DNA of 64,000 bases from Octopus vulgaris (taxonomy: Eukaryota). The notes beneath the pieces are model-generated. The model did no database searches and was not told the DNA's origin. It saw only the letters and a program-made list of their open reading frames with translations. Within the stretch, counting starts at the first letter, position 1. The number at the start of each line of letters is the position of its first letter. Location: NCBI GenBank assembly GCA_951406725.2, contig OX597817.1:83142001-83206000 (forward strand), in the 5' to 3' direction. Made by a program: the position numbers and the translations under genes. Of this stretch, positions 2,968 to 62,019 are shown piece after piece.

Positions 2968-3074
2968 ATATATATATATATATCTTTATATGTATATATG
3001 TATATATATATATATCTTTATATATGTGTGTGTGTGTGTGCATGTATGTATTTTGGATTTATTCCCTAATATTT

Positions 3075-3168
<94 letters not shown>

Positions 3169-6794: not shown

Positions 6795-6833
6795 CCACTG
6801 ATGAGGTCCCAGAAGTGTGACGAAAGAGCTCTG
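6795..6833 (+). ncRNA. Minimal type-I hammerhead ribozyme motif
   Basis: cca-CTGATGA-g-gtc-ccagaagtgt-gac-GAAA-gagc-TC-tgg: stem I cca/tgg, stem II gtc/gac, near-palindromic stem III, predicted CUC cleavage triplet. Confidence 0.65.
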
Positions 6834-6947: not shown

Positions 6948-8174
6948 CACGGGCTGGATAATGTAATTTCAAACAGATTTATTTTAATATAGAGTAGGAC
7001 GCCTTTGGCAGTAATTACAGCTTGAATTCTATGAGCTATGGACTCATACAAAGTTTTAATTGTTTCCAAAGGAATTTTTGTCCATTCTTTAGCTAAAACA
7101 GACTCTTGTAGTGTAGATGGTGGAGGATATCGACTACTTACTTATTTTTATAAAATGCGCGATAAATGTTCAGTAATACTGAGATCTGGGGACTGTAGTG
7201 GCCAGATAAGATGTTCAACTTCACTAGAATGTTCCTCGTGCTATTCAGTAATAACTTTGGCTGTGTGAATTGGCGCATTATCATCGCGAAAGATTGCGTT
7301 TTCCCCCGTAAACAGTTCCGCAACCATAGGATGAATTTGATCAGATAGAATGCTTAAATAGTCTTGAGTATTAATTCTGCCATGGAGAAAAACCTTTGGG
7401 CCGGCGGATTTCCAAAATATAGCACCCCAAATCATTACAGCTCCTCCTCCATGTTTAACAGTTGGAAGAAGGCAGTCTGGGTCAAATGCTTCTTTGGGAT
7501 GTCTCCACACGCACACTTGACCGGTGGTCAGAAATAAGGTAAAGGATAACTTGTCCGAGGAAATAACATTCTTCCACTGCTCTAGGGAGCAATTCTGTCG
7601 GTATTTACTCCAATCTAAACGCTTTGCAACGTTTGATTTTGAAAGTAGTGGTTTTCTGATTGCAGCCCTCCCGTGAAATCCGTTTTTGTGCAGCTCCCAG
7701 CGAAACTAGGTCTTTGAGGTGGTCATTAAGCCCTGCAGTAATTTTGGGAGCTGTACTTTTGTGATCCTTTCTAAACATTCACGTATAAGAGTCCGACAGT
7801 CCCTATCTGAAAGATTTGGTTTTCTTCCGTAGTTTTGTTTCCATGATGAGATTTTCCCCTCTTTCTCAAAGGCTGTCATTATTTTCGCGACAGTACTTCT
7901 TGAGACGCCAAACATTTCGGCTGTTTTCGTCACGCGAGCGCCTGTCATATGCGCACCAACAATTTGACCTCTTTGAAAGTCCAATAGATCTGTCATTTTA
8001 ATGAATTTTAATTACATTGTTCTAATGACGTCTGAAAAGAAACAGCAAAACATATTAAGCAACATTTATACTAAATAAAAAACATAAAAATAAACAAGCT
8101 TTTGACGGTTTTATAGATGTTTCAAAATTATTATGCTAAGATGATAGGTTTTTCGACTATTTTGTCCAACCCTG
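6948..8174 (-). mobile_element. Tc1-like DNA transposon, near full length, degenerate DD34E transposase
   Basis: ORF 7706-7996 is an N-terminal paired-HTH (FQRGQIVG...GRKP). ORF 7241-7516 has TVKHGGG-VMIWG and DDNAPIH, followed by WPLQSPDLSITE at ~7165-7205. Imperfect TIRs cacgggctggataa / ttgtccaaccctg are flanked by TA. Confidence 0.9.
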
Positions 8175-8702: not shown

Positions 8703-8791
<89 letters not shown>

Positions 8792-9299
8792 GTGAATGTG
8801 TATAAAACGAAATTCTTAATATGTAGCATTGAAATTGCAAAAGAATAAAAAAAATACATGTAATAGATTATTTAACATGTATGACGCTGTGCATTAAAAT
8901 ATAGTTTTCTTTTCCATAATATACACATACAATTCACATGCTGCATAAAATTTCCTTAAATTTCTTATATTTCTCCGAATACATAAGTTTCCAAATTTCA
9001 CATTATACATTAGCATTTTTTTGTGTGTGTGTTTTAGTTTTAAAATTTAGAATGCCAGATATAGGTATAGTTTGGGTTATCATTATTTTACACTACAGTG
9101 CAATATAACGAGCTATTGTGATTTAATAACATTCTCCAGTTGTTCACATGTGGGTGTTGTTTGATATATACTATTTCCTTCTGATGTCTATTTTCTTTCA
9201 GTTGTATAACTGATAATTATCTACGGGTAATAATGTATCACTGCTGCACACATTTCGATAGAAATATGTTTAACTAAAATATATTACGTGTATGTGTGT

Positions 9300-19072: not shown

Positions 19073-19591
<519 letters not shown>

Positions 19592-19593
<2 letters not shown>

Positions 19594-20834
19594 CTTACCT
19601 TACCTTCCCAGAGCCCAAGGAGGTCGAGCCCTGATCCAGTTTGAACTAGCTTACAAAACAACCACAATTGGACTGGCCAAATATCTCGAAATATCGAATG
19701 ACTGGATGCTAAAGCTCGTGGAAAATCACGAGAGACGAAAGAAGCTTCATTCTATCATAAAGGAAAGCAAAAAATTTGCTATTGATCTCGTGCAGGATAC
19801 TCAAACTGAACAACCCGAGGGAAGTACGGCAACTATTGTTGCAAAGAAGGTGAAAATGATGGCAATGAAGAAAGCGCACGAGCAATTGGCTGATAGGTGG
19901 GAGGAGAAACCTCTGCACGGCAAATATGTGACCCGCAGCAAAGAAACTGATGTTGACCAGAAGCAAACCCATCAGTGGCTACGGAGCTCAGCGCTAAAAG
20001 CAGAGAGCGAAGGTTTCATCCTGGCTGCTCAAGATCAAAGCCTATTAACCCGGAACTACCAGGCCAATGTGATGAAAAATGGAGCAGACCCAAAATGCCG
20101 ATTCTGCAACGACAGGATTGAAACAGTGGACCACCTAATCTCTGGATGTAAAGTCTTAGCACCAGTGGAGTATAAATTAAGACATGACAGAGTTGGCCAA
20201 TATCTACACTGGCTAATAAGTCGGCATTACAATATCAAAACTGCCGACAAGTGGTATAATCACCACCCTGAGGCTGTAACTGAAGGAGAAAATGTAACCA
20301 TTCTATGGGACTTTCCAGTACATACAGACCGAACCATCAAGGCCAATAAACCAGATATTGTTGTGAAAGACCAAAACAATAAAGTTTGCTTATTGATCGA
20401 CATGAGCATCCCCTGTGATCATAATATCTCAGCGAAAGAGTTTGACAAGCTCAGAAAATATAAAGACCTTCTCATTGAAATTGAGAAAATGTGGCATCTC
20501 AAGGCGGTTACAATACCAGTGATCGTAGGAGCACTAGGAATGATCAAGAAGGGAACCGAAAATTATATGAGAATGATCCCTGGCTTACCATCCCTGCAAG
20601 AAGTGCAAAAGATTGTCTTAACTGGTACATCACACGTATTGAGAAGAGCAGTGTCGATGTGAGAACTGTTGCTGCGCATGTAATTTAATTTAACTTTAAA
20701 AAAAAAAAAAAGGAACGAACTACTGAGTTTAGTTTAATGGCCTACCAATGTATACTATGAGTTTCTTTGCCCTAGGAGTCGGGAAGACACTCGGCAAGAA
20801 ATGGAAGCAAATTTGAAAGAAGAAAAAAAAAAAG
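19592..20834 (+). mobile_element. R4/Dong-like LINE family B, 5'-truncated, intact C-terminal ORF
   Basis: Uninterrupted ORF to 20662 with KPLHGKY, CCHC (CRFC...HLISGC), RHD and the RLE motif KPDIVV...ID...K; 3'UTR then (TAA)n. Confidence 0.92.
19706..20662 (+). CDS. Non-LTR retrotransposon polyprotein C-terminus (CCHC + restriction-like endonuclease), partial
   Basis: 318-aa ORF with CX2CX8HX4C and PD..D..K motifs; the reading frame extends upstream to the insertion junction. Confidence 0.85.
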   Translation: MLKLVENHERRKKLHSIIKESKKFAIDLVQDTQTEQPEGSTATIVAKKVKMMAMKKAHEQLADRWEEKPLHGKYVTRSKETDVDQKQTHQWLRSSALKAESEGFILAAQDQSLLTRNYQANVMKNGADPKCRFCNDRIETVDHLISGCKVLAPVEYKLRHDRVGQYLHWLISRHYNIKTADKWYNHHPEAVTEGENVTILWDFPVHTDRTIKANKPDIVVKDQNNKVCLLIDMSIPCDHNISAKEFDKLRKYKDLLIEIEKMWHLKAVTIPVIVGALGMIKKGTENYMRMIPGLPSLQEVQKIVLTGTSHVLRRAVSM

Positions 20835-20852
20835 TAATAATAATAATAATAA

Positions 20853-22454
20853 TGATAAAAGAATAGACCAAAGCCAAGAAATAAAAGACCAAGAAATAAA
20901 AGACCAAGAAATAAAAGAATTAGACCAAAGCCAAACTTACAAATACTTAGGAATCCATGAACTAGATAAGACACAACACACACAAATGAAAGAGAAAATC
21001 AAAAAAAGAATATTATAGACGAGTTAGAACAATACTAAAAACAGAGCTCAATGCTAAATACAAGATAATAGGTATTAACACTTTAGCTGTCCCAGTTATA
21101 AGTTACAGCTACAATATCCTTAACTGGACACGAAATGAACTGACCAAAATAGATAGGAAAACAAGAAAAATAATGACAGGATCTAGGATGCATCACCCAA
21201 AATCTGACATAGAAAGACTATATATACAACGTATAGAAGGTGGTAGAGGCCTTATACAACTGGAAAACTACTATAAAATAACCACCATAGGACTGCAAAA
21301 ATATCTACTTCAGAAGGAAGGAAAACTGATACAAATAGCGGCAAAACACGAGCAAAACAAAAAACTGTTCTCAGTATTTAAGGAATCTGACAAATACAAA
21401 CAAGAAATCATACCACCTAATAAACATGAAGAAGAAGAAGAAGAAGAAGAAGAAGAAGAAGAAGAAGAAGAAGAAGAAGAAGAAGAAGAAGAAGAAGAAG
21501 AAGAAGAAGAAGAAGAAGAAGAAACAACAAAATCTATAAAACAAATGAAATCCAAACTAAAAATAGAACAGCAACGAACCATGATAAAACGATGGCAAGA
21601 AAAGCCCCTTCATGGTAAATACTGCACTAAACTAAACGCAAAAGAAATAGACAAAGAAAAATCCCAGCAATGGTTGAGAAGCTCAGGACTCAAAGCAGAA
21701 ACAGAGGGATTTTTAATTGCAGCACAAGACCAAAGCCTCCCCACCAGAAATTACCAAAAACATGTAATGAAAAGAAATATAACAAGTAACTGCAGAATAT
21801 GTGGAGATGGACAAGAAACAATAAATCATATTATCTCTAGCTGCCCAGTCCTGGCTAAGAAGGAATATATTCACAGACATGACAGAGTTGGAGCCTACAT
21901 ACATTGGAAGTTATGCCAACATTATGGAATAACAACAGAAAAAAGATGGTATAGGCACACACCAGAAAAGGTCACAGAAAACGAGAAAGCAACCATACTC
22001 TGGGATATGCCGATACACACAGATATAGAAATTAAGGCTAACAGGCCAGATATAGTTGTCAGAGATCATGAAGGAAAAGAATGCTTTCTAATTGATGTAC
22101 CAATACCGACAGATGACAACGTGTCTCTAAAAGAAATGGAGAAACTCTCAAAATACAAAGACCTGGAAATAGAGGTAACCAGAATGTGGAATCTGAAAAC
22201 AGAAACAATTCCTATCATAGTAGGTGCATTAGGCATGATAAAAAAATATTCAGACAAATACATAACAAAAACACCAGGACTTACAAACACATATAACATA
22301 CAGACAATCGCACTACTAGGCACTGCACACATCCTACGCAGAACACTTTCCATACAATAACCATCAGAGCATCACAACAAATCACAGCACATACCCAAGG
22401 CACCCAGAGCTGCGCTCGGTAGTGAAGTGAATGCACGCCATAAATATAAAACTA

Positions 22455-30255: not shown

Positions 30256-30371
<116 letters not shown>

Positions 30372-30560
30372 CATATATATATATAATAAATATTAGGGAA
30401 TAAATCCAAATTTACAGGGAAAAAATCAGATTTAGGATTAAATCCAATTTTATAGTAAAATATTATATAATATTATTAGAGACAAAACCACTATATTGCA
30501 AAACAAACAAGGAAAGACTTAATCAATACATAAAATTTTAATAAAAAGTCAAAAAAACCG

Positions 30561-30603
30561 CCACTACAATTGTTTCTTGTCCTGATCGACAATCTTCAGG
30601 TGG
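30561..30603 (-). ncRNA. Perfect minimal type-I hammerhead ribozyme
   Basis: Minus strand: ccac-CUGAAGA-uuguc-gaucag-gacaa-GAAA-caauug-UA-gugg. Stem I 4 bp, stem II 5 bp, palindromic CAAUUG stem III, GUA triplet. Confidence 0.85.
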
Positions 30604-30989
30604 ACTTCCAATCTAAAATATCAATATTTTAAAATATAAAAATAATAATTTTAAAATAATTAAAGTATTAATGAAAAAATATAAATATATAATCTATATA
30701 TAACCTATATATAATCCATATATAATCAATATATAAACAATATATAAACTAAAATAAACCTATCAACAATTAAATATAAAACAAAACAAAAAATAAACTA
30801 TATATACACCCATACACATATAACTAATTATATATAACCATATCTAAATACATACACTAAATCACACACCTATATATATATCCCTATACATGCACATAAA
30901 AACGTCTAGGCAACGATAAATAAATAAAATAGCCAAATACTTCAACACAATACTTATTCATACTCCCTCACACACACATACAACCCACA

Positions 30990-33470
30990 TTCCCGCTCTA
31001 GAAACGAACATCATTTAAAATTATGAATGGAGAAATGGAAAAACGGAATTAAAAATTATATTCACTTGGTAAATCGAACATTACTTAAAAATTATGAATG
31101 AAATAATGTAATAAAATAACAGACATCGTAAATAGACATAAATTACTACGAATTCTTTAATAAAACTACCATGATAAACTAAAACTCATAAAAACATATA
31201 ATGATAAAATCTCCCTTTACTAAACTCTATAACATACCTATATAGCAATCCCCCTAAACCTAAACATTCACACACAAATACACACACGTAAACCACAGAC
31301 CCACGACATATACAAATACCCACCTCACTCACACATACCTATACATACATATAAACCTCAATATATACTCCAAAAACCCACTCAACCCCACACAGATAAA
31401 TAAACACATACATCCCCAAACCTATATAGCAAACCCATAAACACATTCACACACAAATATACATACGTAAAACACACACCATATACATATACATACTCAC
31501 TAAACTCGATATATACAACAATATTAACACACCCACACTCATACAGATAAATAAATTATACAACTAAAATACGCACACACTCACACACAATCCCACATAC
31601 ATAAACACTCCAAGAAAAACAACATTATTACACATAATACGATATATAAAATACATCGTAAGTAACCAGAATATCAAAAATAACAATATGACATAAGGAG
31701 AAATAATATACATACTTTCAAGTCAGTTTCAAATTATGAAGTGAAATTAAATTCTAAGCCGTTAAAAACATCAAACCAAAATTACGTTACCATAGGAACC
31801 TAACATATGTATAAAAAGAATACGCGCTATGGAAGCAAACGTCATTTAAAATTATGAATGGAGAAATAGAATAAATGGAATTAAAAATTATATTCACGCG
31901 GTAAACTAACATTATTTTAAAAAATTATGAATGGATTCTTTAATAAAACTACCATGATAAATTAAAACTCATAAAAACATAAATGATAAAACCTCCCTTT
32001 ACTAAACCCTATAACATACCTATATAGCAATCCCTTTAACCTATACATTCACACACAAATACACACACGTAAACCACACACCCATAACAAATACAAATAC
32101 CCACCTCATTCACACATACCTATAAGTACATATAAGCCTCAACATATACACCAAACAAAATTACGTTACCAAGGAACCTAACATAAGTATAAAAAGTATT
32201 CCCGCTCTGGAAACGAACATATTTTAAAATTATAAATGGAGAAATGGAATAAATGGAATTAAAAATTATATTCACGTGGTAAAACGAACATTACTTAAAA
32301 ATTATGAATGAAATAATGTAATAAAATAACAAACATCGTAAATAGACAAAATACTACGAATTCTTTAATAAAACTACCATGATAAATTAAAACTCATAAA
32401 ACATATAATGATAAAATCTCCCTTTGCTAAACTCTATAACAAACCTATATAGCAATCCCCCTAACCTAAACATTCACACACAAATACACACACGTAAACC
32501 ACATACCCACGACTTATACAAATACCCACCTCACTCACACATACCTATACTAACGTATAAACCTTAATATACACCAAAAACCCACTCCCACCCCACACAG
32601 ATAAATTAACACATACATCCCCAAACCTATATAACAAACCCATATACACATTCACACACAAATATACATACGTAAAACACACACACACAACATATACATA
32701 TACTCTCTCACATATACGCATATACATACTCACTAAACTCGATATATACAACAATATTTACACACCCACACTCATACAGATAAATAAATTATACAACTAA
32801 AATACGCACATACTCACACACATTCCCACATACATAAACACTCCAAAGAAAAACAACATTATTACACATAATACGATATATAAAAAACTTCATTAGTAAC
32901 CAGAATATCAAAAGTAACAATATGACATAAGAAGAAAAAAATATACATACTTTCAAGTCAGTTTCAAATTATGAAGTGAAATTAAATTCTAAGCCGTTAA
33001 AAACTTCAAACCAGAATTACGTTACCATAGGAACCTAACATATGTATAAAAAGAATACGCGCTATGGAAGCAAACGTCATTTAAAATTATGAATGGAGAA
33101 ATAGAATAAATGGAATTAAAAATTATATTCATTCGGTAAACAAACATTACTTAAAAATTATGAATGGAATAATGTAATATCATAAAAAGACATAAATTAC
33201 TACGAATTCTTTAATCAAACTACCATGATAAATTAAAACTCATAAAAACATAAATGATAAAACCTCTCTTTACTAAACTCTATAACATACCTATATAACA
33301 ATCACTTTAACCTATACATTCACACACAAATACACACACGTAAAACACACACCCATAACAAATACAAATACCCACCTCATTCACACATACCTAAAATTAC
33401 ATATAAACCTCAACATATACACCAAAAAACCACTCCCACCCCACACGGACAAATAAACACATACATCCCC
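30990..33470. repeat. Tandem duplication of a ~1.2-kb A/C-rich unit containing a sub-repeat
   Basis: ttcccgctct(a/g)gaaacgaaca recurs at 30990 and 32199. The sub-block aaaattat(g/a)aatggagaaat recurs at ~31018, 31848, 32226 and 33083. Confidence 0.9.
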
Positions 33471-33632
33471 AAAAAATGGGCGCAATCCCACTCACACCAA
33501 TCATACATGTATACAATTACACACACAAGAACAATACATAACTAACCCAAATATACAGAACATACCACAAATCACCAACAAATTCCTTGTTTGTTTTGCA
33601 AAATAGTGGTTTTGTCTCTAATAATATTATAC

Positions 33633-33684
<52 letters not shown>

Positions 33685-33697
33685 CATATACATATAT

Positions 33698-33809
<112 letters not shown>

Positions 33810-44300: not shown

Positions 44301-45169
44301 CTGTAAGGTAATGATTGATCTAACAGGAGTACAAATTACAGTAAAGATTTGTGTATCCAGTCACTGGGTGTGCATGATGCTGTTGTAATGAAGATATCTA
44401 AAACTTGAATCAAACTAAACAGTCCGTTATAATATATGAGCTGCAGCAATACCTCATTATTTAGATCATTCATAGTTACTAGAGAAATAATGGGTTAAGT
44501 AAGCTATTAGATACGAGACAAGATATTAATTGTCAAATATGAATATTTATTGTGTAAGATTTGAAATAATAGCACAGTAACTAGAATTGGATTAGATAAT
44601 AGGTTTTAAGTAGAACGAGGTTTTTCTAATGGCATGCAGGCATTTAATCTCGAGTTAATCTGATTTGTTAATAACTTCACCTGAACGTTTTAAGATTTCC
44701 ACTAATTCCATGCAGCAAAAGCTACAACCATACCTATCGTTAATATAAGATCTAGCATTTTCTCAATATTTTAGGTAATACGGGAGTAGAAAGTGTTTAA
44801 CTGCCAGATTTTTATAGTCATGTTTTAACCATATCTGTTTTTTTAAAGACGTGATTATGGTATGCCATCTCCGTTTGAAGGTGTTAGAAGTAATACCTGT
44901 GTAGATAAATGTATTATGGTTAGTATGAATATTACATTTATAAACAATATTTTTTGCCAGACAGCTATTAATAAAAGGGCTCAGAAATGTATTTCTACAA
45001 TTACATAGTTTCGATGACGATAGTTATTACAGAGACGGCTATTTAGATTACAATTATGTTGTATATAGCTAGTATGATTAGAGTTAATATTTGTGTTAAG
45101 TATGTTAATAGCACTTGCATCACCTTAGTTACGACTAGATGTACAACTCTTATAATTATAATTACTAGC

Positions 45170-51834: not shown

Positions 51835-53136
<1,302 letters not shown>

Positions 53137-61025: not shown

Positions 61026-62019
61026 CTCAATATATGATACATTTTTGTTCCTTTGATTTTAATTAGTCAAATATCTATTTTGGTTAAGCGGAAGGAATTA
61101 TTTACCCTGAAACTCCTGATATTTCTTCATTTTTAATATCTGTTGACAATATAATTTTATGTAATAGTGTATATACAAAATTAATGATTTTCACATTATA
61201 TATTCCTTAGTACAGAACTAACAATAGGAATACAAATACCTAGCGTGATTTCTGTTTCCTGTATATATTAGGGAAAAAGGCATATTAGGCCGATTAAGAA
61301 TCTTGGATTCCTGACATAATTATAGATTGTTTGTGATAAACAAATCTACGTTTCATGAAAAATGTTATTATATTCAGTACCGATTCTATATCCACTATAT
61401 CACTAGCTAGTTATCCTGTATATGTTATAATATGTAAACAATTGCAGTGGCAAACAATCGCAAAGCACAAGCAGTCGTCTCAGCAAGCATTTCATTTTAG
61501 ACCCTCATTCACTGCGTATTTATGAATGATGTAAGCAAAAATAAAATAGATAAAATATAATGAAATATATTGATATCCGTAGGAAACTTGACTGAAGATT
61601 GTGGTGCTGCCACTAACAGTTGCTTTCGGGGTAAGAGAGAGAAAGGGAGAGAGAAAGAGAAAGGGACAGACAGACAGACAAACTGAGAGACAGTTTACAA
61701 AGAAATAAAAGAGAGAGTGAAGTTTCACTTTAAGGGGCAGAGAACCGGTTCAAGGTTTAAAATTCTTTTGATTATGAGAAGTCTTTTTCTTATGAGTGAC
61801 AGAGCACAGGGAATAATATGTCCCTATAATATTTTTTTCCATTTTAAGTGTCGTAGTTGTAGATAACGTCATTTCGTCCTACTTATAAACTCTTCAGTAC
61901 CACAGAAGTTTGGATCATGATATTAGTTGGTTTATGTTCATTTAAAATCTTTAGGATTTTACGATCGTTTTCTTTCCTTATTTTTGTTCTTATTATTTTG
62001 CAACTGACCTGTGTCTTGC

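What the first reader, a model, noticed from the sequence alone, without database searches (positions are those of the whole stretch)
30384..33630. 3.2-kb ORF-less element: perfect hammerhead, inverted termini and a 1.2-kb tandem body
Seen: an intact HHR on the minus strand (30561-30603) and a ~49-bp inverted copy of the region just 3' of the ribozyme at the opposite end (33583-33630). The body is strongly strand-biased (G/T-rich on the HHR strand) and made of a duplicated ~1.2-kb unit with sub-repeats. The whole sits in a TA tract, and a tiny copy of the same terminus occurs at 3053-3075, also in TA. Established: Penelope-like elements make partial inverted/tandem pLTRs and carry such HHRs. 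Inference: this is a large non-autonomous PLE- or retrozyme-like family whose body is satellite-like non-coding RNA rather than a decayed ORF. The intact ribozyme suggests recent activity.
Basis: partly seen in the sequence, partly recalled or inferred. Interest (0 to 1): 0.75.

Follow-up and report, generated by a model that had tools for sequence, protein, structure and literature searches.

The report
Truncated Penelope copy, RNA-edited sister lineage
This is the cut-off tail of a protein-coding jumping gene, not a non-coding element of its own, and its sister copies, whose tail gained a flipped segment, each carry about a hundred A-to-G changes that were likely made by RNA editing and then copied into inherited DNA.

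Summary
The observations hold, but the element is not non-autonomous. It is a 5'-truncated copy of a young, autonomous Hydra-clade Penelope-like element (PLE). The 'tandem body' is that element's 4-5 kb repetitive 3' UTR. Full copies encode an 840-aa RT plus GIY-YIG protein (10 of 27 full-length frames open). The hammerhead, inverted short end, tail and TA target are known PLE features.

The unusual result lies in sister copies. One clade inverted about 1 kb of the UTR, so it can pair with the UTR sub-repeats. Its 26 copies examined each carry 73-139 A>G changes on the RNA strand. These fall at 166 of 443 A in strongly pairing blocks against 13 of 533 elsewhere, avoid a 5' G, and accumulate along the tree. 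This is the ADAR signature, most likely fixed in DNA by retrotransposition. The window copy belongs to the un-inverted lineage and shows none (4 A>G, 4 T>C), so it preserves the pre-editing state. No RNA evidence was obtained. This scan has noted ADAR-type marks in Penelope copies before, on other DNA of this genome and others.

The parts
30286..30383 (.). (TA)n target microsatellite, left flank (preceded by (TC)n 30258-30286)
   Evidence: 85 of 88 long or short 3' ends in the family abut TA tracts
30384..30465 (-). 3' 'tail' extension (long end), about 80 nt, present at only one end of two-ended insertions
   Evidence: 23 of 25 two-ended insertions have one long and one short end
30384..30640 (-). 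pLTR terminus; in full copies the same sequence also lies just upstream of the ORF start
   Evidence: L031 1931-2196 = 8763-9029, 98%
30561..30603 (-). type I hammerhead ribozyme with palindromic stem III/loop; predicted cleavage between 30565 and 30564, probably as a dimer
   Evidence: activity untested
30604..33582 (-). 3' UTR of the Hydra-clade PLE, un-inverted and unedited lineage, truncated at 33582
   Evidence: 98% colinear with L085 and L053, 95% with autonomous L081 over 30380-33168
30989..32158 (-). distal copy of the 1.2-kb UTR duplication
   Evidence: 90% to 32198-33429; the duplication is also in full-length copies
32198..33429 (-). proximal copy of the 1.2-kb UTR duplication
33345..33582 (-). 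end of UTR segment B, which is inverted and A>G-edited in the sister clade and colinear and unedited here
   Evidence: 5-15 A>G in 25 of 26 inverted copies; the 26th does not cover the edited part
33583..33631 (+). 49-nt inverted copy of the element's 3' end (short end), joined at the truncation point
33632..33806 (.). (TA)n target microsatellite, right flank
3052..3079 (+). 28-nt stub of the same family's long 3' end, in TA

Best explanation
The window element is the 3' UTR and hammerhead-bearing end of an autonomous Hydra-clade Penelope-like retrotransposon, truncated at its 5' side and capped by a short inverted end, and a sister clade with an inverted UTR segment carries strand-specific A>G changes that were likely made by ADAR on the folded RNA and fixed by reverse transcription. 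Steps: (1) shown: full copies are pLTR-ORF-long UTR-pLTR with RT and C-terminal GIY-YIG. (2) Inferred from published PLE biochemistry: the endonuclease cuts (TA)n and RT starts at two internal RNA sites, giving one long and one short end; here the main arm stopped after 3.2 kb and the second arm after 49 nt. (3) Shown: a single inversion-deletion in the UTR of one clade placed about 1 kb antisense to the UTR sub-repeats. (4) Shown: A>G changes sit on the RNA strand of both partner arms, avoid 5' G, differ between sister copies and accumulate along the tree. (5) Inferred: germline ADAR edits the hairpin, RT reads inosine as G, edited copies become new masters, and editing slows as the duplex weakens. 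(6) Untested: hammerhead cleavage, probably dimer-dependent.
For: Intact 840-aa ORF linked to the same UTR and terminus. RT fold closest to telomerases; C-terminal domain closest to I-TevI, EndoII and UvrC (Z 9.2, rmsd 2.6, 90 aligned). Hydra motifs DKT, CxCX5C, CxxC, CxH. 10 of 27 full-length frames open; synonymous changes about equal nonsynonymous against older copies. 24 inverted copies form one clade, support 100/99, nested among colinear ones. A>G 73-139 vs T>C 2-9 per copy (one copy 81 vs 20) in 26 copies, on either genome strand (2016 vs 108 and 1055 vs 80); in segment B the polarity flips with the inversion. Changed in at least 2 copies: 166 of 443 A in strong pairing blocks, 33 of 194 in weak, 13 of 533 outside; T>C 3 of 586; silent ORF A 1 of 230. 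5' neighbour G 7 of 67, C 25 of 125, T 92 of 273, A 75 of 172; no 3' preference, as reported for invertebrate ADARs (PMC5625713, passages). Window copy and six close un-inverted-type copies show 0-4 A>G vs 1-6 T>C. An older inverted arm in the colinear master shows 45 A>G of 56 mismatches.
Against: No RNA evidence of expression, editing or cleavage was obtained. The pre-editing state rests mainly on one colinear copy (L085), checked against the window, L053 and L168-L170 only where they overlap. Sites are not independent, because copies share ancestry, so the p-values overstate support. Private A>G changes are few (0-8 per copy), so most edits are shared or recurrent rather than per-copy bursts. 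A second strand-specific bias, C>T in segment B of the later lineage, is not explained by ADAR and shows that other strand-biased processes act here. L169 and L170 differ from L085 by more T>C (17-20) than A>G (8-9). No full-ORF copy of the window's own un-inverted sub-lineage was among the 40 scored ORF hits. The Hydra RWK motif reads KWK here. No tree with published Hydra sequences was built.
Confidence: 0.83

Rival explanations
1. The element is a non-autonomous PLE derivative or retrozyme with a satellite-like non-coding RNA body that spreads as its own unit.
For: No ORF in the window copy; hammerhead and tandem body present; many short ORF-less copies exist.
Against: The body is contiguous with the ORF in full copies. 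Truncation points differ from copy to copy. In the search none of the other 39 scored candidates extends past query base 463 into the window's junction. Only one hammerhead, not one per unit.
Confidence: 0.04
2. It is a truncated Hydra PLE, but the A>G excess in sister copies comes from a non-ADAR strand bias: RT misincorporation or pausing at hairpins, transcription-associated mutation, or selection for G-U pairs.
For: A strand-specific C>T excess also exists; the whole RNA strand is C-poor; no RNA data.
Against: A>G is about 15-fold enriched in pairing blocks and nearly absent from silent ORF sites and the unpaired UTR start, whereas C>T is not enriched in pairing blocks (0.13 vs 0.22). 5' G depletion fits ADAR. 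The changes weaken the predicted duplex from about -207 to about -157 kcal/mol, which argues against selection for pairing.
Confidence: 0.11
3. The tandem body or the A>G pattern is an assembly or polishing artefact.
For: Low-complexity repeats flanked by microsatellites; no reads examined.
Against: The same structure occurs on many contigs at 93-99%; polarity follows the element on both genome strands; shared changes follow the ORF tree.
Confidence: 0.02

Closest known systems
Hydra clade of C-terminal EN+ Penelope-like elements, including Hydra-1_Obim (Craig et al. 2021, PMC8557442; passages, section 11 and supplement passages seen)
   Same: Single ORF with RT then GIY-YIG, DKT, CxCX5C linker, CxxC and CxH, canonical hammerhead in the pLTR, (TA)n target, inverted 5'-truncated arm, tail at one end.
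   Different: About 7 kb with a 4-5 kb repetitive 3' UTR (described Hydras are generally under 3 kb); about 80-nt tail (30-40 described for PLEs); KWK for RWK; long Asn-rich linker. By eye the N-terminus differs widely from Hydra-1_Obim, so it is another family; this was not computed.
PAc Poseidon PLE mechanism (Frangieh et al. 2024, PMC11167929; abstract and passages seen)
   Same: Two RT start sites delimit the tail, both target strands are cut and extended, AT-rich target; this fits the long-end/short-end pairs.
   Different: Another clade; there initiation is inside the ORF, here both ends lie upstream of the start codon. Not tested biochemically here.
[quoted passage not shown]
   Same: Near-half of A changed to G in an inverted-repeat region and copied into DNA by RT.
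   Different: Isolated viral clones; here a host retrotransposon clade inherits and accumulates the changes over successive rounds, with an unedited sister lineage in the same genome.
APOBEC DNA editing of LTR retrotransposons (Knisbacher and Levanon 2016, PMC4866542; passages seen)
   Same: Clustered, strand-biased deaminase marks fixed in genomic retroelement copies.
   Different: G>A made on cDNA, vertebrate LTR elements, none found in invertebrates; 'ADAR' does not occur in its main text. Here A>G, tied to RNA pairing.
Animal non-LTR retrozymes (Li et al. 2026, 10.64898/2026.07.22.740005; part 1 of 5 read)
   Same: Type I hammerhead, PLE connection.
   Different: Retrozymes have a hammerhead in each tandem unit and no ORF-bearing parent of the same sequence; neither holds here.

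Membership tests
Hydra-clade PLE | Single ORF with RT and C-terminal GIY-YIG endonuclease | tested here: met
   840-aa ORF in L081; RT fold; GIY-YIG fold. Pfam gave no significant family for this protein.
Hydra-clade PLE | DKG changed to DKT | tested here: met
   SDKT at residue 127; DKT in 28 of 34 homologues
Hydra-clade PLE | CxCX5C linker; CxxC and CxH around the conserved E and N | tested here: met
   residues 691, 797, 825; 32, 33 and 33 of 34 homologues
Hydra-clade PLE | N-terminal RWK motif | tested here: inconclusive
   KWK at the aligned place; RWK in 17 of 34 homologues
Hydra-clade PLE | Canonical hammerhead in the pLTR | tested here: met
   sequence and structure only
Hydra-clade PLE | (TA)n insertion target | tested here: met
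   85 of 88 long or short ends
Hydra-clade PLE | Phylogenetic placement with published Hydra proteins | not tested
   published sequences seen only as text in the supplement
Naiad/Chlamys PLE | N-terminal GIY-YIG, no canonical hammerhead | tested here: not met
   endonuclease is C-terminal; hammerhead present
Non-LTR retrozyme | Hammerhead in each tandem unit, no coding parent | tested here: not met
   one hammerhead in 30384-33631; coding parent found
ADAR hyper-editing fixed in DNA | One-way A>G on the RNA strand | tested here: met
ADAR hyper-editing fixed in DNA | Confined to double-stranded regions | tested here: met
   166 of 443 vs 13 of 533; pairing is predicted, not probed
ADAR hyper-editing fixed in DNA | 5' G depletion | tested here: met
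   7 of 67 vs 192 of 570
ADAR hyper-editing fixed in DNA | Inosine or RNA-DNA mismatches in transcripts; dependence on ADAR | not tested
   no read evidence obtained

The most novel reading that the evidence does not exclude
An active animal retrotransposon has become a self-editing lineage: a built-in UTR hairpin recruits germline ADAR at each cycle, edits ratchet up from master to master until the duplex is weakened, the process has run at least twice (an older edited arm survives), and the hairpin or its editing favours spread, since all 22 of the youngest ORF-bearing insertions with a readable UTR are of the edited type. A second, unidentified C-to-U process would then turn the flipped segment back to the element's G/T-rich composition.
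Probability: 0.2. Interest if true: 0.85.

Novelty: new variant of a known kind. Interest (0 to 1): 0.58.

Why it matters
The window copy alone is an ordinary truncated PLE. The family gives a natural experiment: edited and unedited sister lineages with 98-99% identical ORFs differ by one inversion, so pre-editing sequence, pairing partners and the order of edits can all be read. If ADAR is the cause, RNA editing acts on germline transcripts and becomes heritable mutation through retrotransposition, a route I found described only for a few avian retrovirus clones (seven library searches). It also provides intact Hydra-clade ORFs and a strict long-end/short-end pattern for testing PLE insertion models.

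Tried and rejected
Rfam at gathering score: 0 hits. Pfam and PDB sequence searches did not recognise the ORF (1 of 35 alignment members hit GIY-YIG weakly); folds were needed. My first label, Naiad, was wrong: the endonuclease is C-terminal. Decayed-ORF reading of the body rejected. Sequencing-run search: no RNA holder listed; no reads were laid, so expression, editing in RNA and cleavage stay open. The window's own 1.2-kb duplicates show no A/G excess (8 A/G, 12 C/T, 19 A/T), so ADAR does not explain the body's G/T-rich strand in general. The two arms of single insertions differ little and not mainly by A/G (7 usable pairs with 1-7 differences; 3 inflated by flanking TA, 1 unrelated, 1 without hit), so arms were not shown to come from different RNAs. 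Hammerhead covariation is weak against shuffles. A target-site duplication cannot be read in TA tracts. Symmetric methyl-CpG decay rejected for the C>T excess (G>A at CpG 0.00 vs C>T 0.27). A look-up of earlier scan notes by this sequence found nothing.

Full report
Observation. A type I hammerhead lies on the minus strand at 30561-30603 with cleavage predicted between 30565 and 30564. Its core is complete, but stem II closes with U-A and Rfam does not report it. A 49-nt inverted copy of 30466-30514 lies at 33583-33631 (98%), 30989-32158 duplicates 32198-33429 (90%), and a 28-nt stub lies at 3052-3079. Both flanks are TA tracts. The hammerhead strand of the body is 48% T, 22% G and 6% C.

Family. 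The window is on contig C4 of a 2.8-Gb genome. No tool named the organism; an octopus is my inference from size and repeat content, and earlier scan notes say the same. Probes gave 934 candidates for the terminus, 950 for the body and 515 for the ORF; only 40 of each were scored, so these are not copy numbers. The scored terminus hits are 97-100% identical. One locus ran from the terminus into a reading frame. Fetching it and others showed the full element: pLTR, ORF, 4-5 kb UTR, pLTR. L081 holds an open 840-aa frame. Of 41 loci examined, 27 cover the whole ORF and 10 of these have an open frame of 800 aa or more. The predicted structure matches telomerase RTs best and the last 161 residues match GIY-YIG nucleases in the top four rows. 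DKT, CxCX5C, CxxC and CxH are present and RWK reads KWK, matching the Hydra clade definition (PMC8557442, section 11). The supplement lists one octopus Hydra family of 2507 bp, which by eye is a different family.

The window copy. It matches the colinear copy L085 at 98% over 30460-33582 and autonomous L081 at 95% over 30380-33168. The body has no similarity to the family protein or 40 homologues. It is therefore UTR, cut off at 33582, with a 49-nt inverted end. Of 25 two-ended insertions, 23 have one long end (window 30384) and one short end (about 30460), and 2 were unresolved; 85 of 88 long or short ends abut TA. This fits the two internal RT start sites and two-strand extension reported for an anole PLE (PMC11167929, passages); applying it here is inference. 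Hammerheads with a palindromic helix III are thought to work as dimers with low activity (PMC4209133, passages); not tested here.

Two UTR arrangements. In L085, L053 and the window, segment B (about 1 kb) is colinear with the rest of the UTR. In another group it is inverted, with about 600 and 175 nt lost at the edges. On a tree of the ORF 3' part (37 rows; copies with under 900 aligned bases and one duplicate left out), the 24 inverted copies form one clade, support 100/99, with colinear copies outside. The inversion is thus derived. Inverted B is antisense to the UTR sub-repeats in blocks of 81-95% identity, and one junction folds as a long hairpin.

A>G signature. Against L085, the 26 inverted-type insertions examined carry 73-139 A>G and 2-9 T>C on the RNA strand; one poorly aligned copy has 81 and 20. 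In B the polarity follows the new RNA strand: 38-72 A>G against 0-1 T>C in seven copies, and 15 against 0 in a short eighth. It holds for copies on either genome strand. Counting sites changed in two or more copies: 166 of 443 A in strong pairing blocks, 33 of 194 in weak, 13 of 533 outside; T>C 3 of 586, 1 of 285, 7 of 812; silent ORF A 1 of 230. A preceded by G is spared (7 of 67, against 25 of 125 after C, 92 of 273 after T, 75 of 172 after A) and there is no 3' preference, as reported for invertebrate hyper-editing (PMC5625713, passages). The window copy shows 4 A>G and 4 T>C, and six close relatives 0-4 and 1-6. Among loci picked by terminus identity with enough coverage, 6 insertions (the window included) were unedited and 9 edited.

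Accumulation. Of 937 scorable A, 41 are G in both the early and late sub-lineage, 66 vary early and are fixed late, 20 are late only, 56 occur in some early copies only, 48 vary and 706 never change. Seven early copies differ pairwise by 8-31 A/G and 0-4 other changes in the hottest 200 nt. The predicted duplex weakens from -207 and -199 kcal/mol before editing to about -157 to -160 and -160 to -171 in late copies. An older inverted arm inside B of the colinear master shows 45 A>G among 56 mismatches to its paralogue, so the cycle probably ran once before. The window copy ends before that arm.

Against and unexplained. There is no RNA evidence. Polarity rests mostly on one reference copy. Shared ancestry inflates p-values. 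Private A>G are few (0-8 per copy). The late sub-lineage also gains C>T on the RNA strand of B (mean 0.27 at CpG, 0.18 at CpA, 0.04 at CpC; G>A at CpG 0.00), not tied to pairing and not ADAR-like. ADAR does not account for the general G/T richness of the body.

Literature. Seven searches (listings and abstract starts seen) returned no paper on ADAR-type edits fixed in copies of an animal non-viral retrotransposon; most subscription journals are not in the library. The nearest precedents are avian retrovirus clones (PMC12925331, passage) and APOBEC marks in vertebrate LTR elements (PMC4866542, passages). PMC5558901 was searched for passages without a relevant hit. The bioRxiv retrozyme paper was read in part 1 of 5; its supplements were not seen and could list this family. 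Earlier scan notes report ADAR-type marks in Penelope copies and the long/short end rule in this genome; I reached both readings before seeing them, and none matched this sequence.

Verdict. The finding as written is a truncated member of a known PLE clade. The family adds a well-controlled, likely case of RNA editing becoming inherited mutation, for which the window copy is the unedited reference.

Noticed in passing
window 44604-45011 (-): Fragment matching the endonuclease half of Hydra-type homologues (tblastn E to 2e-12): an older, different PLE family.
   Followed up: no
window 6798-6831 (+) and 61862-61897 (-): Two further hammerhead-core-like motifs, probably decayed ends of other PLE families.
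   Followed up: no
window 19529-20662 and 20990-22360 (+); 51990-52436 (-): Open frames of 377, 456 and 148 aa that look like C-terminal parts of non-LTR retrotransposon proteins with a zinc knuckle and restriction-like endonuclease (recalled motifs), flanked by (AAT)n.
   Followed up: no
window 7241-7705 (-): 154-aa frame resembling a Tc1/mariner transposase fragment (recalled).
   Followed up: no
segment B in L134-L148, L159: Strand-specific C>T on the RNA strand in the late sub-lineage, highest at CpG and CpA, lowest at CpC; cause unknown.
   Followed up: partly
L085:2530-2700: Older inverted arm within the colinear master with 45 A>G on the RNA strand; its partner arm shows 22.
   Followed up: partly
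L084, L131, L137, L142, L159: Some inverted-type copies have re-duplicated the hairpin junction (end of B plus start of the distal UTR), adding further edited fold-backs.
   Followed up: no
L149-L157, L162-L167: Older subfamilies (81-95% ORF identity) have differently arranged UTR repeats, so the UTR turns over much faster than the ORF.
   Followed up: partly
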